DNA of 64,000 bases, from positions 23,870,001-23,934,000 of the forward strand of contig OZ004611.1 of the NCBI GenBank assembly GCA_963924565.1, written 5' to 3'. Below the pieces are notes generated by a model, which did not search any database, was not told the DNA's origin, and worked only from the letters and a program-made list of their open reading frames with translations. This document shows, in pieces, positions 7,462 through 64,000 of this stretch. This DNA is from Ascidiella aspersa (lineage: Eukaryota). The first letter of the stretch is position 1. Each line of letters opens with the position of its first letter. The translations under genes were made by a program, and so were the position numbers.

Positions 7462-7709
7462 TCAGCTGTAAGTTTCGCGCTTCTGGTTGGCGACCGCGCG
7501 CTGGTAAAAGTACATAAAGTTGGACACGATTACGGGCACGGGCAGCGCCAGGCACAGAATGCCGGTGAGCGCGCACACGCTGCCCACCACTTTGCCGGCC
7601 GCCGTGATCGGATGCATGTCGCCGTAGCCCACCGTCGTCATGGTAACGATGGCCCACCAGAAGGCGTCCGGTATGCTCTTGAAGTAGGTCGACTTGCCCG
7701 AGTCGATTT
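7462..7709 (-). CDS. KCNA: Kv1 last exon: turret, pore (TVGYGD), S6, stop
   Basis: CAG|AAATC...[23 protein letters not shown]...[28 protein letters not shown]. Confidence 0.96.
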
Positions 7710-13700: not shown

Positions 13701-16700
13701 AACATACCCAGACTATTCACGAAAAAACGGTCATTTTATAAACAGGCCATAAAAAAGCATTATCTTTTAAACGGGATTCACTTCGTATTAACGCAATTTT
13801 GAAAACTGTAACGATGTTGTTTTGAACATTTACAATGCTTTGGGCCAGGCACTTTGAGTATCACACATGGTTATCCACGAAAAACAGGTAAACAATTAGT
13901 ATTTTTTGTTTTAGGCTGAATTTTCAACTTATAGTTTCCTCAGAGGCTTTGTCATTATAAATGGACGCTAATCATAGACGTTTATACCGGATGGCAAAAG
14001 CGCTTTTCCAACATATTTTATCCCACTACAGTGACTTAACTATATACGTCATCACGTGGTTGTAGTGGCAATAAATCAACAACAAAAACAACGAATTACA
14101 TTACAGATTTAGTATAAATGAATTCGGCCAGTGATATATTATAGAATAGTGTTGCTGTGGCAAAGCCATCTATGTTTTTCCGATCGTGGCATCACGTGTA
14201 CTGTATGCCTGGATTTCCAAACGATGGCCTTCTACCCCCTTAGTAGGCCGCGATAATACAATTCATTTTAATTAAATTATTAGCCAGTTAAAATCAAATT
14301 TGTTGCTTTTATTTTGACTTCAGCGACCTTTCTTGTGACGCTTCGCACATAATTTTTTTAAACGTGAACAAGGGACATAAAGTGCATTTTGGGAGACAGG
14401 CTCCAAGGAATAGGTCCGACTAACTGAAAACTTCGACACAAAATCTATTAAATACCCTAGAGTATTTGTGATAAAATGAAAGAGCACCCACAATTTATAT
14501 AGTCTTACAAAAAATAGCTTAAAAACGCATTTTATCGCGCCCCACTTGAGTACCTTCAAATATAAAGCCTTCGATTTCTTGATATTTGGACATGGCTTCG
14601 GTTCCGAGTTGGAAAAACTTGATTTCGTCCGCAAAGACGTCCACGGGAACGTCCAACGGTCTTCGGAGGCGACCGCCGCTCTAGAAAAATATGTATTTTA
14701 GTTCATGAAAGAGTTTTTTTAGCTTAACAACAAAAATAGCCAACTGCGGTTGTCCGATCGAATACCGAACGGTTTAAAATAAGCCAAGTTGCTTAAATTA
14801 TAAAGCGCAATGGCAATAAGGCTTAATTTATTTTCAATCAGCACCGATACGAACCGACCGATACCGATACTATCGCTTGGTATCCTGATAGGTATTATCA
14901 GATTTTTAATAGACCAAATGATTTGGATTAGCCCAACTTGATGGCAGTGAACTATCAGCAACACATTTTTTGACACCTGGCCTCCATCCTAAAAGACAAT
15001 GAGAACTTTAGGATAAAACACTCTGTTTTTCTGAGAAATTAGAACAGTCCGCATTAGCGCCACATTGCAAGGCAAAACGTGAATAAAGATGGAGAGAGAG
15101 CCGAAAAGTTGCCCGCTCTCTCCTTCCAAGACAGTTTTATTTCACCGGCCCGGGAATCGATGGCTGACTTTGCAAGCGACCGCGTGACAAATCAATTAAA
15201 TCAACAGCAATGAATAAATTATAAGCGGCTGAAACTAACTACTCGCCGAGTGGCTTCGAGTAGAGTGGCCCCAGCCTTTGCGGTAACGGCAAATGGTGTT
15301 CGTCGGCGCGGCTTCGAAGTCGGATACACGCGCTACCCATTATCCGTTCCGGCCCTAATTTCGTCGCCATGTAAACGCTTAAAACACCGTTGGAAAAATC
15401 ACGCCGAAACAAGCGCCTTTCAATAGTGCAGGGTTTCTTAACCAGGCTTGCTCGCACCTCCAAGGGGTGCAAAAACTGTTCCAAGGGAGTTTGGGGATAC
15501 TGAATTGGACACAGAACTAACTCACATTTTGGTATTGTGGAATTGTGTTCAGTTGCTTTTTTATAAATAAAATTACAAAGGTTTTGTTATTTAAGCAATT
15601 CTAAAAGGTGGTGCGAGAATTGGTTGGCGATTTGAAATGATTTTTAAAATTGTTTTTAAAGTTCGGCATGTTTATTGTTTTAATTGAAAAAAGAAAATTA
15701 GTTTATAATTTATTAAACAGCGTTTCTGAGCAAATAAATCGCGGGTTGCTTTGCATTTGTAGTTGAGGCAAGATAAGTGTCCTTAATTTGTGAATTGTGG
15801 ATCACAATAGGTTAAAATATGACAAAAAATATCGAAATGTTTGATGCTCAGGAAGATATACAAATAAGTGTCGTCTTTTGTAACATTTTCTGTAGAGCGC
15901 ATTTTAAATAGTTAATCTGAACTAATCCTTTTGCAGTATAAAGCAAGTAAATGAGTTGACGCATTTATACCCCACTTGTTTGAATATGACAAAACATATT
16001 TTCAAATGCATAGCGGTTTTATTGTAGTTAACTCTGCAGTTTCTATGCATCGTTTCTCCTGATATAAAGAGCGTCTTTCAAAGATCTTTTGTTTTATCCA
16101 TTATAGCAGGGGGTCCTCACCTTTTTTTCAATCTCCCCAAAATATTTTTGCGTGGATCGTTGTCGGCAAGAAAACTATAATCCCTCCACCTTTTGATATA
16201 TAGGCTACACTTATATTCCCATGTCTTTGTGGAACCCAAAAACTATTTCATACACTCTAAGTAGTCCACAGACCTAAGTGGTCATAAAATAGGTGGTTTG
16301 GAAGAAATACTGATACGAAACTCCTAACTTAGCGTCCGCTTCAACTTATTTAAAAAAAGCATTTTCGACAAAATTAACGTTTCTGATACTCTTTTACATT
16401 TTTTTGCCTTCTTTAAAATAAAGCACCAATCAGATTCAAGAAAAAATGCCGCGAATTTGTTACGTCTACCGTACGACTGGAAATTCAGAAACTCTTTTGT
16501 CTATGCTTCTATTGATTGGGCTAAGCACATTAGTGCTTTAAATAAGCTTGCGTTATCCGAATTCAATACATCGATGAGCATACCACCAACTAAATATCCT
16601 GCAGGTAATTCTATTACGAACACAATTGTTATCCATCGCAAAGAATAGTTTTATACACGGCCCATTACAATGTAATTAATCGCTAATTTCGCTATTTTTA

Positions 16701-19700
16701 AATTCAACAATCAACGATAAAGCGAGGTGTGAAGACAAATGAGTCTTCTTTGATCAGCAAATGTTAAATTCTACATGGAATCATAGAGTTGTTTAACAAG
16801 CAAAACCACAGTTAAACAAAACATGTAAGGAACGGGGTTAAGAAGTTTGAGTAAATGCTTAATTAGCTTGGTTGAACTGTATTATGCGTGACAGCTTCTT
16901 AAGATTTTATATCAAGATAGGAAAAATATTGACCTAAATATTTGATGCAAGAAAAGCACGATTAAAGATATGACTTGATGAGTTGTTTCGCACATTACCT
17001 TAACCCAGGCCACCTTAACTCATTTAAAAGCGTGAAATTTTGTCGTACGTGAGAAAGTCCGTCAAACGGGATTGTTTCGGCGATAACGCGTAATTTACGC
17101 TAGTTTTTCGACTGGTTAAAATTTAAGCCCCTGACCGCACGTATAACATCAAACGATTAAGATATATAGATCATTTCGAAAAATCCGAGTAAATTCATTC
17201 GTACAACTTCCTCAAAGTCGATCACAACATTGAATGCAGTTATTTTAGTCTTTACAACACTGCCGCAGGGTTACATGTACGACGTATGACTTGCTGCATA
17301 CAGTCCATACCGAAAGAGAGTTGGGTATATAGTTCTGTTTCGTGCACATGGGGTGACACGAAACAAAACTGTTTTCTTTGAATACACCATCACCGTGTTG
17401 GAAAACCGCACACTCCTTCACCGTGTTCGAAAGGCCACCACACCAAGGCAGGGTAAGATAACTGCTCGTGCCAATCATTTTAAAAATAGTCGCTTTTCCA
17501 GGTCCAACAAGCAATGTGTGGTCGCCTCAGACCGCAAAACAGCCAGGCAGTTTAATTATAGTCGCCGTGAACCCGGTGTGCTATTAATCAACTCACACTT
17601 ACGCTGTAAACGCAAAATACCGGTGCTGATTGGTCTGCAAAGAAAGCCCAATGTCGTATCATGGCCAATGAGCAGCATTACGCTATGCGCCTGATGCATA
17701 CGTTTTGCCGTCCCAGTGGAATTAAACGCAGACGCCGTCCAGGCCAAGACCCCCTTTTTATAGAACGCTGGTCCCCTCGGGGGGCAACGGCTTTCATCGC
17801 GTGTAAAATGTTTTCCAGTTAGATGTCGCAAACTCGTGGTGCTGAACGCTAGTAACTACTATCGGTTGCGTAGCCTCTCTACTACACAAACTCGTTATGT
17901 AACACGTAATGACTTGGAATTGATTTGCTATATGACGATGACTTGTAGGCAACTTGACTTGCATAAATAAAGACTTTGATTTGGACTTGTTATTAATTAA
18001 AAAATCTAAAAGTGACTTGACTTGGACTCTAGTTCAGTGGTTCTTAAACTTTTGGAGACACGCCCCCTTTTACAATTCAAACAAAACTCGCGTGTTTCAA
18101 ATTCAAAAAAGAATAAAGCAGAACAGCAATTTATTTCCAGATAAGTTGCAATATTGCGAAGGATGTAACTGTTTTTTTTAATACCAAATATTTAATTCGA
18201 GGATCAGTAGCAGGGAACTATCACTTCGTCTTAATGTTTAGTCATAATTCAAACAGAGTTTGTCAATTACTCGCGCCCCCCTTGTGAACCTCACACGCCC
18301 CCCCCCCCCCCCCCCCATTCGGGTCAAAATACTTTGATTTAAAAACATTGACTTAAGTGCACTAAATTCAAGTCAATGACTTGAGTTATTACAACACTGG
18401 TTTACAGTACCACATCACTTCGTGAAAGATAGCCTACACACATACGTGTTGAACAACTGTGATTTGGAAAACTGCTCAAATATAGGTCTTAGAAAAAAAG
18501 CTTAACACAAGCGAACCTGGTAAAAGTGCAATATGGCGTCGAAGGAGGGCCGGCTCCGGTCGAAAAAGTACTGGTCGCGGGTCGGGTCGTAGAACCGCTT
18601 GCGCTTCTCAGGATGGCCGAGCAGCGTGTTGGGAAACTGCTGCAGCGTCTTGTTTTGCGTCTCGTACAGCTGGCCCGAGATGTTGATGACTACTCGCAAG
18701 CAGCAACCGCAGTTGGTGCCGCACGCGTGGAAGTTGCCGCCATTGACGTCTGTAGAGAGCGAGAGATCTTTTTATATTGTGTTTTTTTGCGTTTGCAGAA
18801 CTACCCTCGAAAACAGAAGCCGTAATCGTCGGTCAAAACGCAGCTTCCGAGGGGCTAGGTCACAGTTGTTATTCAAACACATATGTGTGCGTGTCTTTCT
18901 TAACTCCGATAAATTATATAGTTTGGGTGATAGTATCTGTACTAGGAACATCAGACACTTGATGTTTCACTCCAATACCGATACCCGATGTTTTGAAAAA
19001 AAGGTATCTCGATCCGATTCTATAGCAAATGACGTCATTACTATGCTCAAAAAGAATTGATCGGGTAAATGCTTCTCAACATGAAAGTAAAACTATTGTG
19101 TATTTAGCCTTTCTAGCCTTTAACAAGTCATATTGAACTAAAGATATTCTATTTACAAACAAACACCAAGCAAAATGTGGACTATTTTAAGCCAAACTCA
19201 AAAAACTATTCATTTTAACAGGGAGACACAACGTTTAATTGTGCTGTTGAATAATCAAAGAAAAACTAAAGCAGCACTTAGAAAGAATTAGTCCAAATAC
19301 GGTAGACATTTTGAGAACAAATCTAAACAATATATTAAAATAGGTTAACACTACTGTTTTGATCTCATCAAGATTGTAATACATTTATTGTTATTAGCCG
19401 TGCCACATGACATCCAGAATTAACGTTTTCCTACATTATATTACCTGTAAATTAATTTATGTCAGTCAGTATTTTTGTTTTTGTCATTCACCTTTGGTGT
19501 TGAGTGTAGTGCAAAATTAAATTAAAATTATGTTCTTTGGCGAATCAGGCATCTGGTCTGTGGTGGGTTAAAATATTTTTATTAAAATAAATGTACTGCA
19601 ATATCGACAAACACCACCTATTCAACGTTGGCCGAGAGTAATTGAAGTGGTACAAAGCCGCAAGCACAAATACAAGTGACAGACAAATGCACCGAGCCTC

Positions 19701-47783: not shown

Positions 47784-47822
47784 TTAGATGTGGTGCAAGT
47801 TTGGAGAGCTGCCGAATTTCAC
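47784..47822 (-). CDS. Four-TM protein last exon (VKFGSSPNLHHI*)
   Basis: TGAAG acceptor, TAA stop, AATAAA about 245 nt downstream. Confidence 0.65.
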   Translation of the reverse strand: MKFGSSPNLHHI

Positions 47823-50800
47823 CTTCAGTAAAATAACAAAAATGTGATTAGTTTACTTTTCAAGTTTAATCAAAGTAAATAGAGTACGTAACAAATAGAA
47901 AAAATATTTTAAGTTTTAATCCCTAATACATTTCTTGAATATACTTGTCAATGTTTTAATGCATACTAAGAAATTATTGATCTGCAGACTAAGTCGTTAA
48001 CAAAACGAGCGCATTTCTGATTTTACCTGTTTGTTTGACCTTCTGTCGCTGCTTGATTTTGTAAAACGCAACGATTCCGATCTTCCAAAACGATCATCGT
48101 TTGTGAATACCTAACAAACGATAGGGGCAACTTTTTTATTATTTTTTTTTAAATAATTATAAATTAATTTACTTGACTGTTATTACGGAATTGTTTACAA
48201 AGTTACAAACACAAAGATTTCATCCAAAGACAGTCAAACATTCAAGCACTATCTACAGGAACCATTTTTTGTTAATCAACTTAAGAGTTATTTTTATGAT
48301 ATACGCCCAAATAGTGATATATTTTGGTATTACAATAGCAAAGGTTTCATGCAGCCAACGACCATGTTTGTGTAAAACTAAAATTAGTTTTCAACTTTTA
48401 TGTGCAAGATATGCCATTTATCCATATCAATTTGCCAAAAGTACCCTGACTACGAGCGTCCATCAGTGGAATGTTGTTAACATATATTTCTATTATTAAG
48501 ATCCGCGAGGTTTTAGGTAGTCAGAACATTTCTTTAATACATTGAATCGAATTGCTTTCAGCCTAACTTGACGTCATTTTTTGCATTAACACGGTGTCGA
48601 TACAAGAGAATGCCAACCTCGTCTCTTCTTCCGGACATCCTCTCCTGCGACTTGCTCCTTTGCCTCCCGTCGCTGGCGCTTCTTCCGCGCGACGAAAACC
48701 GCTCACTCCTCGCTCCGACGCGATCCCTGGAAGACGAGGTCCTCCTCGAAAACCTCCCTTTGTCATCTTCATCCCTGTTCCTGCGCCGCGAAGAGCGTCC
48801 TCTTTCCATCCTCGGAGCATCGCGCTCAAAGTCCCTGAATCTCTCTCGATCATCCTCACCTGATCGCGTCCTACTCGCTCCTCTTGTCGAGCTCCTCCGG
48901 GAGTTCCGGGACTCGAATCCATCTTCCCGAGGAGGCAGCGACCTGTTCCGGCTCGGACGTCGATCCAGCGCTCTTCCTGACTCGAAAACGTCGTCTCTCA
49001 TCGACTGCTGCGATCTTCGGTTCCTGCTCAAAGATCTCTCCCGATTATCATGCGTGGATCGCGACCTTGAGTCCGGAAAGGAACCGCTCCCTCTTCGATC
49101 CGTGCTCCTCACGTTAAAGTTGGATCCCGAGTTGTTGCTCGTCCTTGTTCTAATAGACTGTCTTCTGTTGCTGCTTGTCCCCGCCTGCATCGCGCCGTAA
49201 GCGGAGTAGACGCTACCCACGTCCTCGTAGAATGAAGAGGCCGCATCTGATGCTGCTGCTTGCTGGTCCCGTGGAGGCAACTTTGGCCCGTTCGAGTTTC
49301 TGCTCTGCGGCCTGCGCTCGTGCGTAAATTCAGATTTGTTATTTTATGCGCAACCCGAATAGGAGACAATCAACGTAAAGAGAAACCTACAATCGTAAAT
49401 GCAAATATAATGTGTATGAGTAGCAATTTGTATGTTAGGACTGGGGAATCAGCTTTGTTAAAACCGCCGGCTTTCCCTTACTTTTTTTTGTTAATAACAG
49501 AAAGCACTACTTTTGCGATTAGCTTTTTTGATTAAGTTTCTATTTAGTTGCTTTTTGATTAAGTTCTATTTCGTCCCAATCAATCCAAACGTTATTATAG
49601 CACAGAAACATCCATAGAACCCTTGGTCAGATATATAAAAGGTAATGGTGTGCAGTGGTAAATATTAGACAATTAACAGAAATTAATGCACTTTTTCAGA
49701 CATTTTGCTTGCCAAATTTGCTCCATATTTAATTTAATATCTCAACGTAGTTAGTTTGACTTTTATGCAAGACGGTCGCACATAACATTCGGTCCTATGC
49801 AAGACATGCATAAGTATTTTGGGAGCACTTAAGGACTTTAAAGCAAATTGTGAAAAAAAAGTCAAGTTCATTTTTCGGCTTTAAATTCTGGGAGACGGCT
49901 ATGGAAAACGATCATATCCAGAAAAACAAATAACAACCTAGACCGTGCGCTGTTCCTGGAAGCAGCCCATTCACTTCTGGTCAGAGGCTCCCCTGCTGTG
50001 TAGGATGTCCTTCGACGCAAATCCCCGCTGTGGTATCCCTTGTAGTTTCGCATCGACTGCGACCTGCCTCCTCTCGTCAGCGTCTTGCTTCCGTCGCGAC
50101 TCTGTACGTTTGACCACGAAGAGGAGCGGCTGATCATTCTTGCCTCTCTGGCGAAAGTAAAAGTGTCGTGTTTTTTAATTGAAAGTCCGTTCGTTTCAGA
50201 GGTGTAATCTTGACTTATGTGAATGAGTCGATTTTGTACAGAAAAAAGTTTGAGTTGGAATTGATCATAATTCACGCACGACAAAGCGGCTCACACTTAA
50301 CCGACGTATACGATTTTGTGTTTTTTTTTCTCAAGAAACTGTAATTAAAACGCCGATTACTATTTTTGTATAGAACCGACGTGCGTTTTTAAATATCGAG
50401 TCAAAATATAATACGAAGCATCCCCAAAGCAGGAACTGTCTAAAGTTATACTGATACAGGAGGGGACGTAGGAATTATTTAAAATGATTTAGGTTGGATT
50501 TCATAACCAAACTAAATTTGCCATTTGAGAATCGAATCCCCATGATTTGCACAGTTAGACGATCACTTCGAATGGAAGAAGTGATGATTTTGGGATAACA
50601 GATAAATAAAATTCGTAAATAAAAGCTGAATTTGATTCAAAATAACCCACTTTTAGCAGAAAGATTCTGCCTTCCTTATGTATTTCGAATGCAGAGTATT
50701 GAGACATTACAATCCAGAAACAACTTACCTTGGTGACGGAATCGTAATTTCGGGACTGACCAGCAGCTGCGGGTCGATTTCCTCGTCAGAAACAACCGAA

Positions 50801-53800
50801 CCGTGGCGACCCTTGGAAGCCCCGGGCGCCAGATTGGGCATGCTGCGAGTCCTGGTCGACATCGAGTAGGCTTCGCTGGGCAAGTAAGTCGAGTAGTCGT
50901 CGTTCATATTCAACGGAATCCAGGTAGAGTTGCTGTTTTTCGACCTCGGCCTGCGGATGTCTGACATGGCCGAAAACTGCTGCATGGAAGGATCGTAGCG
51001 GGGCGGGCGCGATGGAGTCGGGGTGTAGACCGGTGGGGGCTCCATTGGGGGAGGTGGGTAACCCCCGTCACCCCGGTACGAGTAGTAGCTGCCGTAATCT
51101 CCATAGAGGCTGAAATCGCCGTAGCAAGTGCTGCAAGCCCCGTCGTAGTAGATGCTGTTGTTGTCGTGCTGGTGATGATGGGGGTTACCAGGGTAGGGGT
51201 AAGATTGGGGGTAAACGTGCGTGCGGCCCCTGGGCCTGTTGGGCGGCGGTGGGTAGCGGGGGTAGTTTTTGTCCCTGGTCTGGGGCCTGTAGCCGTATAT
51301 CGGCTCAGGTCGGTCGGTGGATATGGACTGGTGGTGGGGTATAGGGTGGTGCGGGGCGGCGCCGTACATTGAATAGGCGTTGAGGCTGTACGGGCCCTCG
51401 TCTGCAATGACAAAAAGCGCAAGTTGATATGCAAGAAAGAGTTTAATTAAAAACGCTTTAGTGCAAGGTTCTTGAATATATATTTCGAGTTAGACTACAT
51501 TTAGCAGTGTTGCAATGGATTACGTCAATGACTTACTAACTGCTCTTAATACATTGTTTTTAAATTTCTTGGACGTGAAAAGACTAACTGGACTTGACCT
51601 AAGCCTTTTGGAAAAATACTTGACATAGACTTAAGTAATTGGGTCAACTAACATGAGTGGAAATTAAGTGTTTTCTTGAAATATTTTTTATTAAAATTAG
51701 GTTATTTTTCATCTCAAGTTTAAGGAATTTAATTACTTTTAATTTATAGGTTAATCAAAAAGATCTTTGTAGTCGAATCGCAGCACTTTTATTACGTACC
51801 CAGCGAAAATTCTTCTGGAAGGTTGCTTATTTTCGGAGTAGTTGCCGATTTGCGAAGTCCCTCAAACTCGTAAGCATCTCTCGGCGAATTGATGTGGCTG
51901 GTTTTTGACCTGTCGACAATTAAAGGCATTTTAGACTAAAAGTTTAGGATAAGTAAAAGCTGCAAGTTAATTTTAGCATTGCAGCAAGGAAAAATGCCAA
52001 CTAGTTTTTGCTGTTGAGAAAACGTAGTGTATTGTAGTGTGCAAAGTCTTTACTGTAGTAAGGTACGAAAGCTTTTCATCGAACTTAATTTTTCAAAGGC
52101 GAATTTTAGCAAACAGTATCAAAGACGTAAGGTCGAATTCGTCCTGCGGGGTAATTTTTTCCGGCGCGGCTAACATAATTTCAAAAAATGTTTATAATTA
52201 ATTCATTAACAGAGCTGTTTCTAGGGTGCAAATACAGACCGAATTTTGATAACATTTTACACTAAACGACGACAGAATTAGTAAAGTCTCAGGCCGAATT
52301 ATCAGATTGATCACCAAAATGACAAAATGCAGTTATCCGCGAACAACGTAACCTAAATTACCACAACAAAAACATCAACAGCAACAGAGTGTCCGTCGGC
52401 CCGCTTACCTTATGTCCTTGTACGACCTCAGGTAGCGGTCGCAGTTCTCCGGATGTTTAGCGCACAAATCGCTTCCAAAGAGCCGGAACATCTCCTCCAT
52501 TGGATTGGAGCTCTCGCTCGGAAAAACAGTCCGCGTCTCGGGGCCGTTAAGTCGCTTGAAGAAGCTAGAAACAGCAGCGGGCTCCAGCTGTGGCTTCTGC
52601 GGTTCTCCCGGCTTTCCTTGGTGCTGTTGTTGCTGGGCATTTGGCCGAACGGTCGATTGGCTGGTTTTCGACGAAGCCCTGGACGGCGGGGCAGCCTGCT
52701 GGTTCTGTTGGTTTGGATTGGCTGCTGCTGAGCGATTCTGGGGACCAGCTCTTCGCTGTAGGGGAACCGGAGCGGCGTTTTGCAACTGAGCGAAATTGGA
52801 AGAGTTGACATTGTTTGTATCTTGATATGTAAAATTTATGATGGTTTGTAACGATTCCTAACCGGTGCGACATGGGATGTTGGCAAGTAGGCCGCAGGAA
52901 ATAATATAAAGCAGGATTTTGTAAACTGATTTAGTTTATTATTTGGCTTAGATCGATTTTCTCCACTATAGTACTTAAAATAATGTGCAACCATAAGACC
53001 TGTGTAATTAAACTTGCATAACATTTTACGAAATAGCGGTATACCAACAAAAAAAATCGAGTTCGATCCACTCTGCAGGTGCGCCCTGACTTAAAGGGTT
53101 AATAAACACTGCTTAAAGTAGCAAAAATTACAAAAAAAACAACCCAACTTTCAGGATAAATCCTAAAATATCGCAACAGAAATGTTTAGATCAGTAGCCT
53201 TTTTGTGCACTCAGAAAGTCTTCCAAACCCTATTTTAGTCAAAAGGAAATATCCCAATCAAACCAAATATTGTTGTGAACGCTTTGCGCGAATCGATTCG
53301 GTCAACTATATGCCATGGCGAGACTGGGGGCCAGGTTAAACACTTTATAGGACCCTTGACATTCATAAACCTCCCATAAACGCAACTATATAGGTGATTT
53401 AGTCTACGAAGAGACGATTCAGTTTCGCCTTGCGGTGCTTTTAGCCGGAAGCCGTTTGTCACAATTTGTCGCAAATGCAAAACATCCTTACACTAATGGA
53501 AAATGACACCATTGTTTTTATTTAAGCACTATGTATAAGGTTACTTGTGGGAATAAATAAGTGGTATGTTGTTGGATTTTTATCAGTATTGCCTAGTGCG
53601 TTATAGGTACCTTGTCGTCTCTCTTCGGTATGCTTGGCAGAATATCGTTGTGCTCCGGGGTTTCTGCAAATATTTCACGATTTGTTAGAGTAATGTAGCG
53701 AAATGAACAACTTACTAAGCGAAAAATGGCCAACTTACAAAGGCTTTTAATATGATTTTAAGTGACAAGAAATAAAGCATTTCACTATGGTTAAAGTGAC

Positions 53801-56800
53801 AAGAAATGAAGCGTTAACATAAATAGGAACATTTTATTGACATTTGGTAGCAAAGTGGCAATTTATTGTGCATTGGTATAACCTATAGGAATAAATGTAT
53901 AATTGAAAATTTGTGTAGGCCTACAATGTGCGTATATCTTAACAGTTTAACACAAAACTGTTATAGCTAGCGGCCGACCTTTTTTTCGTAATACTCACCA
54001 TCGTATACATTTCCCGGGGGCAGGTCATAGAACGATGACGCAACCGTTTGTGTGTCGTCATCATTTTTGACGTCAGACTCGGGCACGTAAGCTCCGTTCG
54101 TCATCGGCCAGTTCATGTAAGCCGTTCCATTGGAGGTTACGCCGGATCTTTATAATAGATTGAAAATGGTTACGGGCTGATTGATACAAAAATATTACGA
54201 ACATAATCTCAAACTGAGGCTTTAGGGATCCTGAATTAGGCAAATCATCATATGTCATCAACGAGTTTTAGTTTTTCACTTTTGATGTGCAACTGTAAAT
54301 CAAAAATTCAATCCCCCAAATTTATGTATTTTCGAACAATTGAACCGTTTTTTAACGGTTGCGATGTTAAGGAATGCTCGTTTAAAGCATTCATGTTTAT
54401 TGCTAAAACTTGACTTATGGGAATGCCTTGGTTTCTGTCGTTTGCAACAGACTAGACTGGGACTTGTTTCTAACACTGGTAAATTCTCAAGAACGTGTGT
54501 TTAGATGCAAGATACACCGAATTCGGCCATCGGCAGAACTGGTGTGGCAACATGATTAAGATTGCGAGTGACGCCGCTTGCACACGATTTGCGGTTTGCG
54601 GTGAGTAAAGTCGAGCATACGAGATTACGAGTTGTAAAAGCAAACTGCATTCTGAAAACTGATGCACGGTGATTTCAGTCGCTTTGCGTTCTACATAGCA
54701 GTCCTTCATAGTTCAATTGTACAATTCTCTATGTAGGGTTTTCTAAAAAAAATCCAAATTTTTAAGTGTAAAATGCCCCGCGTGTCACCCTGCGATCATC
54801 TTTTTCCAACCAATCGTAACTTGTCTAACGCCTAGTTTGAATAGGGTACTTGGCACGAAATTATCCACCGGTGATGGCAAAATTGGTAAGTAAAATTTTC
54901 GGTAAATCAACAAATAACTGATGATTTTTTAAGCGACTCTTTAGCTATAGGCCCACGCTACAAATACATCCAGTCTGGTTTAAACCACTCTGCGAAAGAT
55001 TCCACTGATTGAACCCTACATTTTTGCTACCTTTACGTTTTTTTGTCAGCGAAGTACCAAATATTAAACGAGTAAAATCGTCAACCTGAAATCGTATGTA
55101 GCCACCTTAAGACGTGCTAAAATTATTTGTCGACCTATCGCCGGGTCTCGATAGCAACCACACACATTAGATTACCAACCTTCCAGTTTCCACGCTGAAA
55201 CCACTTTGAGACGAGGGGAGTCTTGAATGGCGAAATGACGAAGACGCCCGACCTGAAAATCGAGAATAGTTTTGAAATATGCTTCTTTACGATGCCTATC
55301 TCGGCGAAACAGAAACGATGAATGGTTTGCGGCAAATAGTTTTAAAACATCTGAAGACCTGTAAGGAATATTGGCAACAAATAGAGAACTATTGTAAAGA
55401 CACTTAAAAAAAGCTGAAGGGTTTCACAATAAAGGTCTGGTCATCTCAAAATTTGAATTCGTGTCAGGATTTCAACAGTGAATTTCGCATTTTGACTAAC
55501 AAAGTCTTATACTTTTGAAAAAATGACCATAAAAAATTCATCATTTTCCCAAGAGAAACGGGAAGTATTTTGCTTTCTAAATTTTGCACTAATTGTCAAT
55601 CAAGACCAGTTTCGGAAAAGGTCTTAGGCCTAACCTGAAAATACATTTAGTTAAGTCCGGTCAAAGCGTTTAAAAATATTAAACCATTGGAATGCAGCAT
55701 GTCTCGGAAGAACAAATCGGCCTTCTTTAATCAGGTCGTGAGAGAATCATCTCGTTTTCATTCCTACAAAGTGCCACCTAATCGTACGGTAAAGTAAATA
55801 AAAATTTTGTGAGTAAATTGGACATTTGCTGAGATACACATTTAACTTTTCAAAGGATTACGAACCGCGTTTCGTCAGTTGTGCAGCCCTAATATAAAGC
55901 ATCTTTGTACAAAAATACAAGATTATAAAATTCCAGGGTCGTTGATTTACAAAACGCGATAAGATTACAATGTTATGTACTTACTCGCAGTTTTGCCCGC
56001 ACCAGTCGACGAGTAAAAAACCCCTCCCGCAAGGGAGGGGAGGGATATTTCCTCGTCGTCGTCGCTTCCGTCCGGGTTAGTGCCGACCTTTGGAGCATTC
56101 CTGTACTTGAGAAGTCTCAGGTAAGAAACCAGCACTATCATCAGGTAGACCTGCGATGTTTTGCTTCAGTTTGGTAAATGTGCATTTATTACAACACAGG
56201 GCTACCAATACCAACGTACGGCTGAAATTTTTATATTGACCCAAGATTAGAGTTGGAGAGATAACTATGACGCTTTCCGTTTAAGACCTTCTTGGCCCAA
56301 AACCTTATCGCCATAAACTTAATAGGACATCATGGAGATTTAACCTTAAGAGTATTCTTTGACCAACGATGCGCTTTTACTAATATCGCCTTGTTCAAAA
56401 ACGAAATATATCCAGACTTATTTAGGAAATGTTTTACCCTTCAACTTTCATAAATGTACGTATACATTTTTTTAGAAATTCATGGTTTTAAATTATTCGT
56501 TGGAAAATCATGGTTTTATAGACTTGTTTAAATAAGCAAAAATATTCTAAATATCTATAAAGAATAAACCTAAAAGTATTTCTTTGTTGTTACTTATTTT
56601 TGTTTGCTTTCCAAATCCCTAGTAAGAATTTTTAAGTTAATAATCTGAAATAAAAATTAAACTAACATAGCCAAGTGCATGGACACCAGTCAGTGCCCAA
56701 GAAGTCACAAGGTTGTCCTTGATCTTGTCGTTGGTCTTCGGGTTCCTGACGATAATCTGATTGCCATAGGGTTGATAGCCCTCGTCGTAGGCGTAAGAGT

Positions 56801-59800
56801 CTTCTTCCACTTTAAGCGGGATGACCGTGGCGAAGATAGCCTCGCCCAGATTGACCACGATCGCCAGACCGGTCAGAATGGCGAATACCGCCACCGAGTT
56901 TCGGATCTTTTTGTAGTGCTCCTGCTCGAAAAGTAAATAGACGCGATTAGGCGCCGGTGTATAGGCTGACAACGAGTGCGTATAGGAAAATCATTTATTT
57001 TTCAACAATTATGTCTCGAAATACTCCCCCCCCGTTAAGTAAACCCAAAAAAGAACCTGAACTTTCGGTAAGCTAACTTCAAATCAAAATTTTATCATAT
57101 ATTCACTAACAGTCTTTTTACAAGTTATAATAACAAAACTTCAACTTTCTTGGAACGAGTTCGTAATACTGATTTTTTGCAGATATTCCGTACCGGTAAA
57201 AAAAAACGAAAAAATATAATAAAAATACTCTTTTGTTACCACCCATCAGGCCTGCCATCTCTTTAAATGTATTTGAAAAATATAAGAACTATACCCTCAG
57301 GTTTTATAAGTTTACTTGTTTTAGACGCCACGTTGTGACGTTGTTTTAGACGCCACGCTGTGATCTAAAATTTGTAATGCGTTTCAAGAAGAAAATTATT
57401 CTACTTTCACCCCTGGTTGTTAGTCATGACTTCTTTATAATTTTAAATGTTGCCGTTTCATGAAATTTTTAACACTAACATTCAACCCAACATTCACCGT
57501 TAATTTATTGCCGAGTAACATTTTCAGACCTTACTATTTCGATTGTCATCTTTCTCGTTCGTTTCTAATCTGATCGTGGTTTTAGTTGTACGCGATTTTA
57601 GCCGATCAAACTACATTTAAAATTTAGATGTTTGCCTTAAAACTTTCGGGGTGATATCTCCAGCGGTCACAATTATGATTTCGTGTTTACTCAACGCAAA
57701 GCGGAAACACACGCGCCCAAGGGAAAACCAATAACTATATAGGTCGGCTTCTAACCTAAATAACGCGGCTGGGAACATGCATATATAGTCGAACGGAGCC
57801 AGTTGGTTAGGTTGATACGAATAGAAAACATTAACTGCTAGACAACCTGAAGTTTGCGGCCAAATGCAAAGTGCGTCATATTTCGGCCTCGTAAACGTTT
57901 TTGTTCAAACTTGCAAATCGTTAACATTTCGTTTTCGATGTGCGCTGTAAAGTTTTCGATCTATGCTATATCATGTTTATGACCCTCGCCAACATCTCCT
58001 CTCGTCTAATTGGGTTTGTCCCTATTTTCCTGTGCATTTATGGTGCAGAAGTCACTTGTGGCTTTGTGCAGACTTTTAATGGGTGAGTGGGCGGATCCCT
58101 GTCAGCTGTATTGCCACGTATTTCTCTTAGGCAGGAAGCGGGTTTTCCGGAACGTGATACGACCAACCCTTCCCTAAATAGACACACGCGTTGTAAAAAC
58201 CTGAGGTAAACAACAACAACAGCTCAGACGCCACTGTTCGGTAATTTGGATTGTACATTTCGAAGGAAGGTTAATTGAAATTCCTCTGCCCCCACCCCAT
58301 GTCTCGCTTGCTTGGTCTTTAAACAGCTGCCCGACGTATAATATATAGTATTTTCTGTTACATAAATGGAGTCGGGAAGGTTAAAGAGCTTACATATTGT
58401 TCAGCCTCCTGTTTGCTAAACATGTATCGCTTTGCATACCACTGAAATATAAAACGTATTTTTATATTAATCGTACTCCAACGAGTTCTTGTTTGAGTTT
58501 TTGTAATGACAATGCGTCTAGGAAAGGTTGAAATGACAAATATTATTTTTACAAGCGTCAAACCAAAAGCTTAAACTTTGCTGTCAAACTGAATTTAAAC
58601 ATTAACCTCCTTGTTCGTTTTTTTTTCTATTTTTCTTCACCCCGAATATCCAAAAATGCATATTAAAGGCCGGGTCACAAAATCGTGGGAAAAGGGAAGA
58701 ACCAGCCACAAAATACTAGTTCAGTATGGCTGATTGAGCATGATTGAAAAGCATTCAATACGATAAGTTTTTGTCCGGTAATGTTAGGTTTAACGAATTG
58801 TCAGTTTACGTCAAGCATCAAAAGAGACGGTTTAAAGTAATTTGGGTTAAAAATGCACCCTTCAACTTATTAATAAAACAACAAACGAAATACCTTTCAG
58901 CTAATTGCCACCACGCCACCATGCGACATTTTAAATATTTTTATATACATTACAACTGTATATCATATAGTATATTATTGATTTAATCTTTCCAATATAT
59001 TGGCTACCAATATGCCAACACAGTCATATGGTGCTAACCCGTCTCAGCTAATAAACTCGTTTCACTAATGTACGTATATTCTTATGTTGTTTCAGCATCG
59101 ATAAAAATAACTCTTTTAATTATACAAGAAACTCATGGGTTTAACTTATACCTATACAAAGTAGTAGGCAAATTTCGGACCCCTAAAACTTAATGTTTGA
59201 CGTCCACCCACCTTCTGGCCCCAGAGGCAAGACGCCACTAGGAGCACCAGAGCGCCGACCATAGAAATCGCAGCCATGGCGATACCGACGATAAGCAGAA
59301 TTCTCCAGATGTCCATATGAAGGTGATTTCCAGACCAGATGACCTTGTGCTTGCCAATTTTGCTATTAAAATCTCCGATGCGATACACCAGAAAACCGAT
59401 ACAAAGGCCCTATAAATGGTTCAGGGCATAACGATTTGAAAGCGAAATTTTCACACCTTTTTGTCGTAAGAATTTTTTTTTAAGTAACGAAAATCTTGCG
59501 TCAGACTTTTTCTATCGCCGCCCAAAATACCCTTTCAAGGGCTATTGAAGGCTATAACACGTGAAACTACTAGGCCTACCACGAAAGGGGTGGAATCTGG
59601 GGTGAGGGGAATGACACAAAGATGCGTCGTAAAAATAACACAAAGTTACGTCATAATACAATTAATCTCAAATGGACCTGTTATTCTCGAGCAAACTCTG
59701 CGCAAATGTGCAGCTAAATTTAAATCTAATCGCACGGAGCGCGAAAAATATGCGGAAAATTGTTTTAAATTGGAAAAACTTTAATGAAAAGGGGGCGTAA

Positions 59801-62030
59801 CGCACGAGGCACATAAAAGAGATTCGATTAACGCTGAAAATATCAGCATTTATAGCACAATTTAACAGAAATTGGACCAGAATTTATAAGTCACGCGAGG
59901 CAACATGCCATATGAAGCCTAGCGGATTTGGCCTGAATAGATTTCCTTGAAACTGACAAAGTTTCGTGCAAACTGCAAAGAATCAAAAAGTTGTGTTTAT
60001 ATGAATAAACTTGGCTCAAAGCATATTTGGTGGTTTTGGCCTGGTGGGCCTGTAATGCTTTTAGCTATACATCGAATTTTAAACACAATATAATTATTGT
60101 ACGGCTATCCCGCGGCCCACAACCACATGGCAAAAGTGAAATCAAAATATTATTTGCTGACAACCCATTAAAATATTGTTTGCGAAAAATATTTTTAAAT
60201 CTTTCTTTCTCGTTACCTTTGTGACGTTTAATACTTTCTAAGGTGACACTGGGTTTTTCAAAAGGCACAACCAGAGGCGCCTGCAGAAAATTTTTAGGGG
60301 GGGATTTTATATCAGTATAAATTGATATACAAATCAATATTATTCCATTAGTAAAACTGAAGTATTGTAAATATGAATAAAAATAATAATCGCATTTTGA
60401 AATTTCAGGGGAATAATTTACTCACCACGGGATGCCCTGTTCACCATGATAACAGTTTAGATATAATTGTAAACAAAAATCCTTTGTACAAAAATGCAAT
60501 TCTAAATGCAACAAAAAAATTGCAGTGTGTGCTTGTTTCTGCGGTGGCAACCACCAATTTAACTTACGACGTATATAAGGGCGGTCAGGAGGCTTCCAGC
60601 TCCGAGACTGCAGAATCCGCAGCAGGAGTAAAGGATCGGGTTCTTCCGCTTGCTCTTCTTCTTCTTCCAAGGTCGATCGTTACTCAGATCGCTCATGGAA
60701 GAAGCTCTTGAGCTGATCACGCTCGAGTCTCGGATCGTAGTCCTATAGTGAAAAAACAAATGGTGTCACTACAGCTTGAGGTTTTACTAAGCGTTGAAAA
60801 GCTATTGAGTCCCTAAAGCTATTAAAAAACAAAGTTCGCTGAATTGGCAAACTATATAGGATGTTCTGACACTTTTCTATTTCGATGCCGACAAACAATT
60901 TAAAAAAGATTCCGATTAGGTGCCAAAAGAGTTTATTACTATATAGGGTCAAATTGGCAACTTTGCGGAAACTGAAACTTTTAAATTTAAATGTGTTCTA
61001 AATCAATTCGGGTTTTGCTGGTAATAAATCTAAAATTAGCTACAGGAAACTTGTTTAATTTTAGTTAAATTTTTTTAACAATAACTTGTGATGTAAATAT
61101 GGCTGCGTTATATCGCAAAGCATTAATTAGATTGGTATGGGATAGGCACCTATTTTAAACTAGTATCGAAGGTGTACTGATACTATACATTGATGTCCGG
61201 TATTAGCTCGAATTTAAAACAATAAGAGATCCCTAATGTTAACTGCAGTTTTCTATTTCAAGGTCAAAATATGTAGTAGAATGTTTCTCACCAACCGATG
61301 TGGGTCGAGTTAGGGTTAGTTATGCGTTTCATACTAATCTACCACTACAATAATATCCTAAAGTATGCTTCCTTGAGCAAACGTTTAAATACTAATTTAT
61401 GGTCCCAGTTGGAAAGCACCCCATTTACACCCTTAAAATAAAGCTTTAATCGAAAACTACGTTCCTTCAAATTGTCAAGATATGCTGGTTTAAATGATCG
61501 CACTCATAGCTTATACAACTTTCAAAAGGGTGCATAATTTTACAGAAAATCCAGTTAAGTGAAATGACATTTCAGATACATGTGACTAATACACACAAGA
61601 TAGTGACGCTTCGCTTGAATTAAAGCTTTCAGTGTCAACTTGCAAAAATTACCACGAACCTTGAAATAGTCGATTCATCTCCGTCAGCATCCGCTTTGGT
61701 TCTTCGTTTAGGCGATCTTCCCCTCGATACTGAGGAAACGGAAGACTCTCTCGACACCGGACGTTTTTTGCCCTTTTTATCATTTTTCTTCTTTTGCTTC
61801 TTTTTGTTTTTCTTATCCTTTGCAGGCTTGCTTTTCGTAGCTGGTTGCTTGACCTTCTTGGCGGGTTTGGTCCTTTTTACTTTCTTTTTGTCTTTTGATT
61901 TTGATCTACCTCGTTCCACGGAAGACTGGCTGGAGTCGCGTTTTCTCTTTTTCTTTTCCTTCTCCTTTTTGGCTTTCTCCTTGCCACCTTTGCTCTTGTT
62001 TATCGTGAATTCTGCCGCTTTCAGCTTCAT
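47784..62030 (-). CDS. Uncharacterised four-transmembrane protein (LAPTM4/MTP-like core) with basic N-terminus and long disordered Pro/Tyr- and Arg/Ser-rich C-tail; 15 coding exons, about 1208 aa
   Basis: Exons 61660-62030, 60568-60742, 59212-59409, 56667-56921, 55985-56150, 55180-55252, 53999-54147, 53611-53663, 52409-52785, 51800-51909, 50729-51401, 49938-50147, 48618-49311, 48027-48110 and 47784-47822 all join GT-AG in frame (3627 nt). CCGFCSLGAGSLLTALIY precedes four hydrophobic segments. Confidence 0.8.
48027..48110 (-). CDS. Four-TM protein exon 14
   Basis: GTTAG acceptor, CAG|GTAAAA donor, 28 codons. Confidence 0.75.
48618..49311 (-). CDS. Four-TM protein exon 13, Arg/Ser/Asp/Glu-rich
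   Basis: 694-nt open exon, GCGCAG acceptor, GAG|GTTGGC donor. Confidence 0.85.
49938..50147 (-). CDS. Four-TM protein exon 12
   Basis: CGCCAG acceptor; donor at 49938, or 6 nt earlier at 49944 in the same phase. Confidence 0.8.
50729..51401 (-). CDS. Four-TM protein exon 11, Pro/Tyr-rich with PPxY motifs
   Basis: 673-nt GC-rich open exon, TTGCAG acceptor, AG|GTAAGT donor. Confidence 0.88.
51800..51909 (-). CDS. Four-TM protein exon 10
   Basis: GACAG acceptor, G|GTACGT donor, phase 2 to 1. Confidence 0.78.
52409..52785 (-). CDS. Four-TM protein exon 9, Q/P-rich
   Basis: CTCAG|TTG acceptor, AG|GTAAGC donor. Confidence 0.85.
53611..53663 (-). CDS. Four-TM protein exon 8
   Basis: TTGCAG acceptor, AAG|GTACCT donor, phase 1 to 0. 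Confidence 0.72.
53999..54147 (-). CDS. Four-TM protein exon 7
   Basis: SGVTSNGTAYMNWP...ASSFYDLPPGNVYD; G|GTGAGT donor. Confidence 0.8.
55180..55252 (-). CDS. Four-TM protein exon 6
   Basis: TTTTCAG acceptor, AG|GTTGGT donor; required to bridge phase 1 to phase 2. Confidence 0.75.
55985..56150 (-). CDS. Four-TM protein exon 5, end of TM4
   Basis: VYLMIVLVSYLRLLKYRNAP...; GTAAGT donor. Confidence 0.85.
56667..56921 (-). CDS. Four-TM protein exon 4, TM3, loop, start of TM4
   Basis: CAG|GAG acceptor in a NAGNAG context, TAT|GTTAGT donor. Confidence 0.85.
57317..57363. repeat. 2x 25-bp tandem duplication (TGTTTTAGACGCCACG.TGTGA)
   Basis: Read directly from the sequence. Confidence 0.8.
59212..59409 (-). 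CDS. Four-TM protein exon 3, end of TM1 + TM2
   Basis: GLCIGFLVYR...ILLIVGIAMAAISMVGALVLLVASCLWGQK; AAG|GTGGGT donor. Confidence 0.85.
60568..60742 (-). CDS. Four-TM protein exon 2, Cys cluster + start of TM1
   Basis: TATAG acceptor, GTC|GTAAGT donor. Confidence 0.85.
61660..62030 (-). CDS. Four-TM protein exon 1, Lys-rich
   Basis: ACAATG start, 123 open codons, AG|GTTCGT donor. Confidence 0.8.
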
Positions 62031-64000
62031 TGTTGTTGATATAGTTTGTTTTCAATCTTAACCAGGAGTAGCCTAAGTGTTTGCTGTCAACTTTAGGCGC
62101 ATGGGAACATCACTCGCTAGTTTTCGCTGTTCAAACATAAAAAACAATAGAAATATTTGGTTTTTAAGTTATATAAAAACAATCGCTTCTGAGGTCGATA
62201 ATACTAACATAATAATAGTCCGCCGGAAAAAATCAGTTTCGCCATAATCATTCAAACTTTTGGTACAACGACTTTAGGCAACAGTATATTTTATGTTAAT
62301 ATGTATTTTACAAATAGTTCCCTTTCGGCACTTTAAAAAGCTACACTGGTAACCTGGCGCTAGATAGACGGGGTCAATTTTACAATAACTTTATAAATCA
62401 GTTTATTGTTTAGGCTTAGAAAAGAAAAAGCCGATACAGGATATACAACAATTCTGAATATTTTGCTTTCTTCTAATATCTATTGGGGTTTAACAGTTTT
62501 CCAGACCTAAGTAAAACCTGGTAATCATAATAAATAAAACTCATTTCCGAACTGTTCTAGCTATATGGTCACCTCCAAGGTCAACTCCATGAACCTAAGT
62601 CATTTAAACTGCTTACTTTTTAGTTTTAACACCAGTTACAATCCCTGCAAGTTGTCGGTTTGTCATAAATCACTTCGCAACCGACCTAGTTTAGTGCCTC
62701 TTGTTATTTCCCGTGATTAGGTCGGCTTGTAGTCATTGTTACCGACGAGCGAGCGCGTCAAAGAAAAGTTGAAAGTCAACTTGGTGTCCAACGCCTCCGG
62801 GCAGAAATCGTGTTGTCCTTGCGAAAAGTTCCGACGCTGCCTTCGGGCCCTCGAAAGTCGCTCGGCGCTGGAAAAGTTTATGTTTTTCTGTCGATTTGCC
62901 GCTTCTGTTTTGTATCGTGTTTACGTAGTGGCGTTGTGTAATTGCCCGTAATGCCATGATTTTGTGCACTTGTCGTTTACGTTTTACCTACGTCACGTGG
63001 ATCGCGGTTATTAGCTATTGATTTTTGTTTAACTTTCCAGCAACTAAACCCCTGACCTTATCAGCGTAGAAAACACATTTCTATCATACACTTCTACCAA
63101 GTTGTCATGTTGATATCAAATCTTTTCGTTTTTAAGACACAAAATGCTTGCAATTTATTGATCAGTTAGACATCATTGAAAGTAAAAACAAATACCGTAG
63201 CTAAAAACTGCTACTATATAAATTTTACGCAAAATATTTAATGAAACACCAAAATGATATTTGAATCAAGTCGAATATTGAAAAACACTGACTAATGTGC
63301 AATTCAAGTGATTCACATACACAATTTATCCTAATTAGTTTGCCTATTTAATTGACACGCATTGGAAGCACCTTAACTTAACTAATGGCAGAGCATGTAA
63401 AGTTTTATGGGGCCAAGTATTGCATCTTTTTACTTTTGGTTTCTTTTCATTTTATTTTTAGTCAATTTGACGAACAGGACAAAATAAAACATTTGCGACC
63501 ATAGGAGCGATTTTTTGACAATACGTTAAGCACGATACATCGATTTAATTTTATAATAAAGAATCGCAACTTTGTTTCCATCGTAGGTTCCAAAATGATA
63601 TAGCCTAGGCTTTAGTGTTTTGTAACGATTTTTTAATGTTTAAATGTTTGTAATCGCCAAAAGCAAAGAACATGGAATAATATCTAATCTTTAAAACGCG
63701 TCATCTTGTGGCGAAGTAAACAGTAAAACATCACAATCTTTACAAAACTAAAATTAAGTTTACCAATAAAGGTAGATGTATAGGCCTATGCCTCTCACCA
63801 AATAACAGCTTCATGAGATTTTAGTGTGCAGCTAACACCTGTCCAATCTAAAACTTTAACAAGATAAACGAACTGTGTTATGTTGATAGGGTTACTTTTT
63901 ATGACACGTTGAGATATAATTTTGTGACGTCACGTTATGGCGTAACTTTGTGAGGTTTAGAATGAAATTGCCTTATGACGTCATCTCTCAAAAATTGTCA

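What the first reader, a model, noticed from the sequence alone, without database searches (positions are those of the whole stretch)
47784..62030. Unrecognised ~1208-aa four-TM protein: LAPTM-like core flanked by very large charged cytosolic arms
Seen: about 160 aa of K/R/S-rich N-terminus, then CCGFCSLGAG and four TM helices (the last ends YVYLMIVLVSYLRLL), then about 850 aa of low-complexity tail organised as Q/P-rich, P/Y/H-rich and R/S/D/E-rich blocks. Known: LAPTM4/5-type proteins are about 230-320 aa, have a Cys cluster before TM1 (LAPTM4) and short PY-motif tails. RS/RE/RD mixed-charge regions are typical of nuclear-speckle and condensate proteins, not membrane proteins. Inference: a lineage-specific membrane-anchored scaffold that may nucleate condensates or tether nucleic acid at a membrane. 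I do not recognise this architecture.
Basis: partly seen in the sequence, partly recalled or inferred. Interest (0 to 1): 0.7.

Follow-up and report, generated by a model that had tools for sequence, protein, structure and literature searches.

The report
Sea-squirt membrane anchor for phosphatase PP1
This is one spliced 15-exon gene, with uncharacterised counterparts in sea squirts, for a 1,208-residue protein with four predicted membrane helices and a long tail whose conserved last residues match the docking motif of the phosphatase PP1, so it likely tethers PP1 to a cell membrane.

Summary
The gene is real: 15 GT-AG exons give 1,208 aa, and all 14 introns appear as joints in one public run's contigs. 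Full-length uncharacterised orthologues exist in Ciona intestinalis (1,058 aa) and Clavelina lepadiformis (1,160 aa), colinear to the last residue.

The four-helix core resembles the LAPTM/Pasiflora tetraspan group (language-model lead, Cys cluster, one shared intron). It fails Pfam Mtp and lacks the PW motif, and the genome has a separate Mtp-like gene.

Conserved instead are short islands: a new three-helix domain, a Tyr/Gly/Cys block, PPxY and RxSxP motifs, and the C-terminus KQVKFGS[ST]PNLH (12 of 14 invariant). KQVKF is the only RVxF motif in each of three tails; two also carry SILR upstream.

Best reading (0.5): a membrane-anchored, phospho-regulated scaffold that likely recruits PP1. 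Binding, location and tissue are untested, and one divergent full-length relative lacks the motif.

The parts
47784..62030 (-). whole coding span, 15 exons, 1,208 aa
61660..62030 (-). exon 1 (aa 1-124): Lys/Arg-rich N-terminal arm; 5' UTR reaches at least 62126
   Evidence: table 8, record 6
60568..60742 (-). exon 2 (aa 124-182): basic stretch, Cys cluster CCGFC (60610-60624), start of TM1
59212..59409 (-). exon 3 (aa 183-248): end of TM1, loop 1, TM2
56667..56921 (-). exon 4 (aa 249-333): TM3, loop 3, start of TM4
55985..56150 (-). exon 5 (aa 334-389): end of TM4 with invariant SYLRLLKY
55180..55252 (-). exon 6 (aa 389-413), Ser-rich linker
53999..54147 (-). exon 7 (aa 413-463): conserved Y.NWP and YDLPP motifs
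53611..53663 (-). exon 8 (aa 463-480)
52409..52785 (-). exon 9 (aa 481-606): Q/P-rich linker, then from 52578 the conserved three-helix island (aa 550-622)
51800..51909 (-). exon 10 (aa 606-643): end of the helical island
50729..51401 (-). exon 11 (aa 643-867): Tyr/Gly/CxxC island (from 51159), two PPxY motifs (50995-51036), RTRSMPNL (50830-50853)
49938..50147 (-). exon 12 (aa 867-937): conserved GYH[ST]GDLR.RTS island
48618..49311 (-). exon 13 (aa 937-1168): R/S/D/E-rich block, not conserved
48027..48110 (-). exon 14 (aa 1169-1196): RS.S.R[FY] motif and KQ of the RVxF motif
47784..47822 (-). exon 15 (aa 1197-1208): VKFGSSPNLHHI and stop; completes KQVKF

Best explanation
This is an ascidian-type four-helix membrane protein, likely descended from the LAPTM/Pasiflora tetraspan group, whose long and probably cytosolic tail likely acts as a phospho-regulated scaffold that recruits protein phosphatase 1 through the conserved C-terminal RVxF motif KQVKF. 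Shown: one spliced gene, four hydrophobic segments, orthologues in two ascidian orders, and conservation concentrated in short islands and at the terminus. Inferred: both ends are cytosolic, and the Cys cluster and basic arm hold it on anionic membrane. KQVKF, helped by SILR in Ciona and Clavelina and by the hydrophobic pair after it, docks PP1. The Ser/Thr directly after the motif (GS[ST]PNL) and the RxSxPN[LI] site upstream would let kinases switch the tail between PP1 and 14-3-3. The PPxY motifs would bind WW-domain ligases for sorting or turnover, as in LAPTM4.
For: The last 14 residues are invariant at 12 of 14 positions across the window's protein, Ciona and Clavelina, tied for best window in the 858-aa tail, against 21% for the whole tail. 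KQVKF fits [K/R]x(0-1)[V/I]x[F/W] (PMC6406801, passages) and shares VKF with the solved ASPP2 motif RVKF (PMC6377682, passages). It is the only such motif in each of the three tails. Chance of one in the last 20 aa of a shuffled tail: 0.008-0.009 per protein. Chance that any invariant run holds one when the letters of those runs are shuffled: 0.012. The motif is split over an exon junction and closed by a dedicated 39-nt exon. SILR lies 46-50 aa upstream in Ciona and Clavelina; SILK plus RVxF is a known pairing (PMC11536154, passages). RxSxP is kept in 4 of 5 lineages. The genome encodes a PP1 that keeps the groove residues I169, L243, F257, R261, V264, L266, M283, L289, C291, F293 (residue list recalled).
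Against: RVxF is degenerate: 32-40% of shuffled tails hold one somewhere. Only three lineages with the motif were available, and they are related. The divergent full-length relative P0019 keeps the core and the helical island but has no RVxF, SILK, PPxY or basic arm, so PP1 docking is not needed family-wide. The window's own protein lacks SILK. PPxY is absent from fragment P0020, which covers that region. The terminus also reads as a second S-x-P-N-L phospho-site, which could explain its conservation without PP1. The family profile scores the genome's own Mtp-like protein no better than shuffles (-4.7 bits).
Confidence: 0.5

Rival explanations
1. It is a LAPTM-like endolysosomal or junctional tetraspan adaptor whose tail mainly binds WW-domain ligases and 14-3-3. 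The terminus is kept as a 14-3-3 or other ligand site, and PP1 is not bound.
For: Nearest Atlas clusters are LAPTM4B/Mtp, DUF7807 and DUF4728 (0.84-0.87). Two PPxY motifs sit at matching places in three lineages. S-x-P-N-[LI] occurs twice in each of the three proteins. LAPTM4 sorting depends on PY motifs and Nedd4 (PMC3214061, abstract).
Against: No Pfam Mtp match and no dileucine signal in the tail. PPxY is missing in P0019 and P0020. A 14-3-3 site would not need the invariant K-Q-V-K-F upstream, nor SILR.
Confidence: 0.25
2. One reading: a membrane anchor (for example inner nuclear membrane) whose basic arm and RS/RD/RE block tether nucleic acid or nucleate a condensate.
For: A basic N-arm is kept as composition in the window's protein, Ciona and Clavelina (62, 55, 47 K+R) and in L028. 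The Tyr/Gly-rich island is aromatic and low-complexity.
Against: The RD/RE block is 5-7% invariant and largely missing in orthologues. P0019 and P0003 lack the basic arm. The basic arm fits anionic-lipid binding equally well (inference).
Confidence: 0.12
3. It is mainly a structural gamete or ciliary membrane protein (a TMEM225-like role) whose tail links membrane to cytoskeleton through the conserved three-helix island; PP1 docking is secondary.
For: The island is the one tail block kept in all 9 sequences that cover it, P0019 included. Expression is very low in RNA run X4 (110-113 laid reads, 1 joint read) while run X3 holds all joints, which hints at restricted expression. TMEM225 is a testis-specific four-TM protein (PMC10875271, passages).
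Against: The tissue of neither run is known and depth is a poor measure of expression. The island has no fold match (best Z 5.2).
Confidence: 0.1
4. Two or more neighbouring genes were fused by the reader, or the model is an artefact.
For: No single contig or long read spans the whole transcript.
Against: 14 of 14 joints seen. Two independent annotations give colinear full-length proteins. L028 has the same introns in the core.
Confidence: 0.02

Closest known systems
Ciona intestinalis LOC100181251 (XP_002123604.2) and Clavelina lepadiformis LOC143471342 (XP_076825913.1)
   Same: Same architecture end to end; core 55% and 49% identical; same tail islands and terminus.
   Different: Both are uncharacterised; both carry SILR and lack the RD/RE expansion; 150 and 48 aa shorter.
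LAPTM4A/4B/5 (Pfam PF03821 Mtp)
   Same: Four helices, Cys cluster before TM1, PPxY motifs in the tail; nearest by language-model features; intron in TM1 at the same aligned column and phase as in this genome's own Mtp-like gene.
   Different: No Pfam match, no dileucine signal, tail about 860 aa (Atlas LAPTM clusters are 235-272 aa in total); the genome has a separate Mtp-like gene on contig C4.
Pasiflora/Fire exit/Ikebana tetraspan family (DUF4728 and kin)
   Same: Tetraspan topology; invariant Ser-Tyr at the TM4 boundary; Trp at the start of TM3 in 5 of 6 sequences.
   Different: The Pro of the PW motif is absent in 6 of 6; VxS only in the 2 Ciona sequences; very long tails.
TMEM225 (possible PP1gamma2 regulator of mouse sperm)
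   Same: Works-like analogue: four-TM protein proposed to regulate PP1 (title of Matsuura and Yogo 2015 seen in reference lists; its C-terminal RVxF is recalled).
   Different: No homology found or tested; small protein without long arms (recalled).
PP1-interacting proteins with SILK + RVxF + hydrophobic-pair motifs (KNL1, inhibitor-2, PNUTS, ASPP2)
   Same: Linear motifs in a long low-complexity region, with a phospho-site beside the RVxF.
   Different: Those are soluble; here the motifs end a polytopic membrane protein; binding untested.

Membership tests
LAPTM / Mtp (PF03821) | four (or five) membrane helices | tested here: met
   hydropathy; AlphaFold2 of relative P0003 gives four long helices, pLDDT mostly 80-89
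LAPTM / Mtp (PF03821) | Pfam PF03821 score over the cut-off | tested here: not met
   no Mtp match for 9 window exons, 7 hits or 3 more full-length relatives; the genome search rang on C4 and C8, not here
LAPTM / Mtp (PF03821) | detectable sequence homology to an Mtp-family protein | tested here: inconclusive
   Atlas features 0.87 to LAPTM4B clusters, under the 0.9 lead threshold; family HMM against the genome's own Mtp-like protein -4.7 bits, 966 of 1000 shuffles as high
LAPTM / Mtp (PF03821) | shared intron positions with the genome's Mtp-like gene | tested here: inconclusive
   TM1 intron at the same aligned column, phase 0; the phase-0 intron after TM2 matches only when helices are paired by hand; the others differ
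LAPTM / Mtp (PF03821) | C-terminal L/PPxY motifs | tested here: met
   2 here, 4 in Ciona, 2 in Clavelina; none in P0019 or P0020
LAPTM / Mtp (PF03821) | dileucine sorting signal in the tail | tested here: not met
   no [DE]xxxL[LI] in the tail of any of 6 proteins scanned
LAPTM / Mtp (PF03821) | late-endosome/lysosome localisation | not testable with these tools
   needs tagging or antibody
Pasiflora family | PW motif at the start of TM3 | tested here: not met
   Trp in 5 of 6 (Phe in the window's protein), Pro in 0 of 6 (definition from PMC4582180, passages)
Pasiflora family | VxS(QYQ) at the TM4 boundary | tested here: inconclusive
   Ser-Tyr invariant in 6 of 6; Val two residues before Ser in 2 of 6; QYQ absent
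PP1-interacting protein (RVxF type) | motif [K/R]x(0-1)[V/I]x[F/W] | tested here: met
   KQVKF at aa 1195-1199, sole match in the tail
PP1-interacting protein (RVxF type) | motif conserved in orthologues | tested here: met
   identical in 3 of 4 full-length lineages; absent from divergent P0019
PP1-interacting protein (RVxF type) | second docking motif (SILK or hydrophobic pair) | tested here: inconclusive
   SILR in Ciona and Clavelina, not here; LH[HV]I follows the Phe at a spacing recalled from GADD34, not tested
PP1-interacting protein (RVxF type) | motif lies in an accessible disordered region | not tested
   inferred from composition and terminal position; no fold of the terminus was run
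PP1-interacting protein (RVxF type) | binds PP1 in a motif-dependent way | not tested
   no complex model or assay
mixed-charge / RS condensate proteins | conserved RS/RD/RE-rich domain | tested here: not met
   14 of 257 positions invariant; RD/RE-type dipeptides 22 against 6, 5, 8 in relatives

The most novel reading that the evidence does not exclude
An undescribed tunicate family of PP1-targeting subunits built by grafting an 860-residue signalling tail, with a new three-helix domain and a terminal PP1/14-3-3 phospho-switch, onto a LAPTM/Pasiflora-type tetraspan anchor.
Probability: 0.35. Interest if true: 0.6.

Novelty: new variant of a known kind. Interest (0 to 1): 0.42.

Why it matters
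Polytopic membrane proteins that target PP1 are few among those I know, and LAPTM/Pasiflora-type tetraspans are otherwise small. If right, this names a function for an unstudied gene of Ciona, a genetic model, with a two-residue test. It would also show a small tetraspan becoming a signalling scaffold in the sister group of vertebrates. It defines two domains with no Pfam match here (the core and the tail island). It answers no long-standing question by itself.

Tried and rejected
Exon 4 as a query among longer proteins found nothing (737 candidates) although relatives were in the collection, so that blank was a sensitivity limit. P0007 (E 7e-4) is a repetitive unrelated sequence and was dropped. 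P0015 is a Clavelina annotation that departs after KQV; I read it as running on at the same junction and did not count it.

Pfam gave no match near a cut-off for the exons or relatives. PDB sequence search gave 0 hits for P0002 and 1 compositional hit for the island alignment. DUF4728 rang nowhere in the genome or controls, which is uninformative.

Fold search of the core: best VIA rows were synaptophysin (Z 12.7, rmsd 3.0, 140 aligned), PRPH2-ROM1 (12.4, 3.6, 162), a bacterial four-helix protein (11.8) and a dystrophin-complex chain (11.3). These are at the level of a common helical bundle. Foldseek had none at E <= 0.001, and no LAPTM chain was listed. Island fold: best Z 5.2, no match; Atlas no usable hit.

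No model of the PP1-tail complex was obtained, so binding is open. No RNA holder was indexed, and X4 gave too few reads to list joints alone. The first metagenome scan found nothing (183 stretches); the second gave 4 loci that look like one further species, and L028, the one I read, ends before the far tail. Earlier-findings look-ups were empty.

Literature: 'LOC100181251' 0 papers; 'LAPTM' + 'ascidian' 2, neither about this gene by title, one read in passages; Ciona/testis/PP1/sperm/transmembrane 6 listings, none about it by title; 'TMEM225' + 'PP1' + 'RVxF' 0. LOC143471342 and Ciona KH/KY model ids were not searched, and no supplements were read, so expression tables may mention the gene. 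Two papers (PMC3131691, PMC6454879) were not held.

Full report
OBSERVATION. The window lies on contig C5 of a 308.6-Mb genome. Reading both strands and fitting splice sites gave 15 minus-strand exons from 62030 to 47784, all GT..AG and in phase, encoding 1,208 aa. Exons 3, 4 and 9 each match one place in the genome. Contigs of run X3 show all 14 introns as joints: 13 with exact size, one off by a base at a variant letter, one placed two bases off. Run X1 shows none of them, and raw RNA run X4 adds one joint read. X3's kind is not on record and no contig spans the gene, so a single transcript is strongly supported but not shown on one molecule. Of the 20 exonic variants in the displayed rows, 14 are synonymous (104 and 77 further rows were not shown).

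RELATIVES. phmmer of exon 3 against 1.84 billion representatives gave 7 hits, one spurious. Named ones are Ciona intestinalis LOC100181251 (1,058 aa), Clavelina lepadiformis LOC143471342 (1,160 aa) and a Ciona savignyi fragment, all uncharacterised. Ciona and Clavelina belong to two ascidian orders. The window's core is 55% and 49% identical to them, less than the 71% between the two Ciona species, so it is a third lineage; that the host is an ascidian is inferred from this. Further searches gave a divergent unnamed full-length protein, P0019, six tail fragments and four metagenome loci; the one I read, L028, has the same core introns. No named hit lies outside ascidians, within the limits of these searches.

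THE MEMBRANE CORE. Four hydrophobic segments fold as four long helices in an AlphaFold2 model of relative P0003 (11-row alignment; pLDDT mostly 80-89 over aa 41-190, under 50 in most of its tail). Structural matches are generic tetraspan or four-helix bundles. The Atlas puts the Ciona core nearest LAPTM4B/Mtp, DUF7807 and DUF4728 clusters at 0.84-0.87, a lead only. Those families are grouped with Pasiflora in bioRxiv 10.1101/2024.04.13.589362 (passages). Pfam finds no Mtp match. The genome has its own Mtp-like gene on C4 (E 5.9e-5 for one exon), next to a VWA-domain gene; this recalls the vertebrate LAPTM-matrilin neighbourhood (PMC1464127, passages). Both genes have a phase-0 intron 14 codons after the last Cys of the cluster, but the family HMM does not recognise that protein. 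Of the Pasiflora motifs (PMC4582180, passages), PW is reduced to W in 5 of 6 sequences and VxS holds in 2 of 6. The core therefore probably descends from this group but cannot be filed as LAPTM or Pasiflora. Cytosolic ends are inferred by analogy (PMC13170719, passages) and from basic flanks, which alone are weak evidence.

THE ARMS. Invariance across the three lineages: N-arm 12 of 143, core 68 of 187, whole tail 179 of 858, Q/P block 7 of 69, island aa 550-622 39 of 73, Tyr/Gly/CxxC block 27 of 57, RS/RD block 14 of 257, last 14 aa 12 of 14. The mixed-charge block is thus a local expansion, which undercuts the condensate idea. The island is kept in all 9 sequences that cover it, with two invariant Cys. 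It folds as three helices (pLDDT 81-89) with no fold or family match. Two PPxY motifs, the Nedd4-binding signal of LAPTMs (PMC3214061, abstract; PMC2064599, search listing), align in three lineages but are missing in P0019 and P0020. RxSxPN[LI], which matches the 14-3-3 mode-I consensus (recalled), is kept in 4 of 5.

THE TERMINUS. All three lineages end KQVKFGS[ST]PNLH[HV]I. KQVKF fits the PP1 RVxF consensus (PMC6406801, passages; PMC10807198, passages) and resembles ASPP2 RVKF (PMC6377682, passages). It is the only match in each tail. Shuffled tails put one in the last 20 aa in under 1% of trials each, and anywhere in 32-40%; shuffled letters of the invariant runs give one in 1.2%. Ciona and Clavelina add SILR 46-50 aa upstream; the window's protein does not. 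Phosphorylation of PP1-docking motifs can block binding, and the motif here is followed at once by a second S-x-P-N-L, which suggests a PP1/14-3-3 switch (inference). The genome encodes an intronless PP1 with the docking groove intact (groove residues recalled). Against: P0019 lacks the motif, the three carriers are related, and the terminus might be kept as a phospho-site alone. No complex model or assay exists.

MECHANISM. Shown: gene, splicing, conservation pattern. Predicted: four-helix core and three-helix island. Inferred: cytosolic arms, lipid anchoring by the Cys cluster and basic arm, PP1 docking, 14-3-3 and WW-domain binding. The nearest working analogue is TMEM225, a testis-specific four-TM protein (PMC10875271, passages) called a possible PP1gamma2 regulator in a title seen only in reference lists (PMC6930163, passages). 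No homology to it was found or tested.

NOVELTY. The gene is already annotated, without function, in two ascidians, and my searches found no paper on it (library limits apply, supplements not read). It is best called a new variant of a known kind: a tetraspan anchor with an unusually long motif-bearing tail. Interest 0.42.

Noticed in passing
window 7292-18771, minus strand: Intron-containing Shaker/Kv1-type channel gene (Ion_trans, BTB_2) with an Rfam potassium-channel RNA-editing signal at 7519-7632 (75.3 bits, cut-off 51); may reflect coding conservation only.
   Followed up: partly
L010:1477-2466 (G000:C2): Intronless full-length PP1 catalytic gene, probably a retrocopy; two more PP1-type matches in short frames on C3 and C9.
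   Followed up: partly
G000:C4:29298004-29301069 (L006/L007): Mtp/LAPTM-like gene directly downstream of a VWA-domain gene, echoing the vertebrate LAPTM-matrilin linkage.
   Followed up: partly
window 51861-52578 (aa 550-622): Small three-helix domain with two invariant Cys, kept in 9 of 9 sequences, with no family or fold match.
   Followed up: yes
P0019 and P0003: Divergent unnamed members lacking the basic arm; P0019 has an acidic DEDEAME repeat and an Asn-rich run and lacks the RVxF end; orthologue or paralogue not settled.
   Followed up: partly
L013-L027: Fifteen viral-contig loci, mostly giant-virus bins, encode PP1-like phosphatases 46-58% identical to the host-type PP1.
   Followed up: no
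window about 59550-60420 and 63830-63950: Intronic and intergenic repeats with very high contig depth in run X1.
   Followed up: no
L009:8163-8444 (+) and L009:3050-3265 (-): Upstream neighbours beyond the window: a CUB-domain exon and a frame that reads like an LSm exon (recalled; no Pfam match).
   Followed up: no
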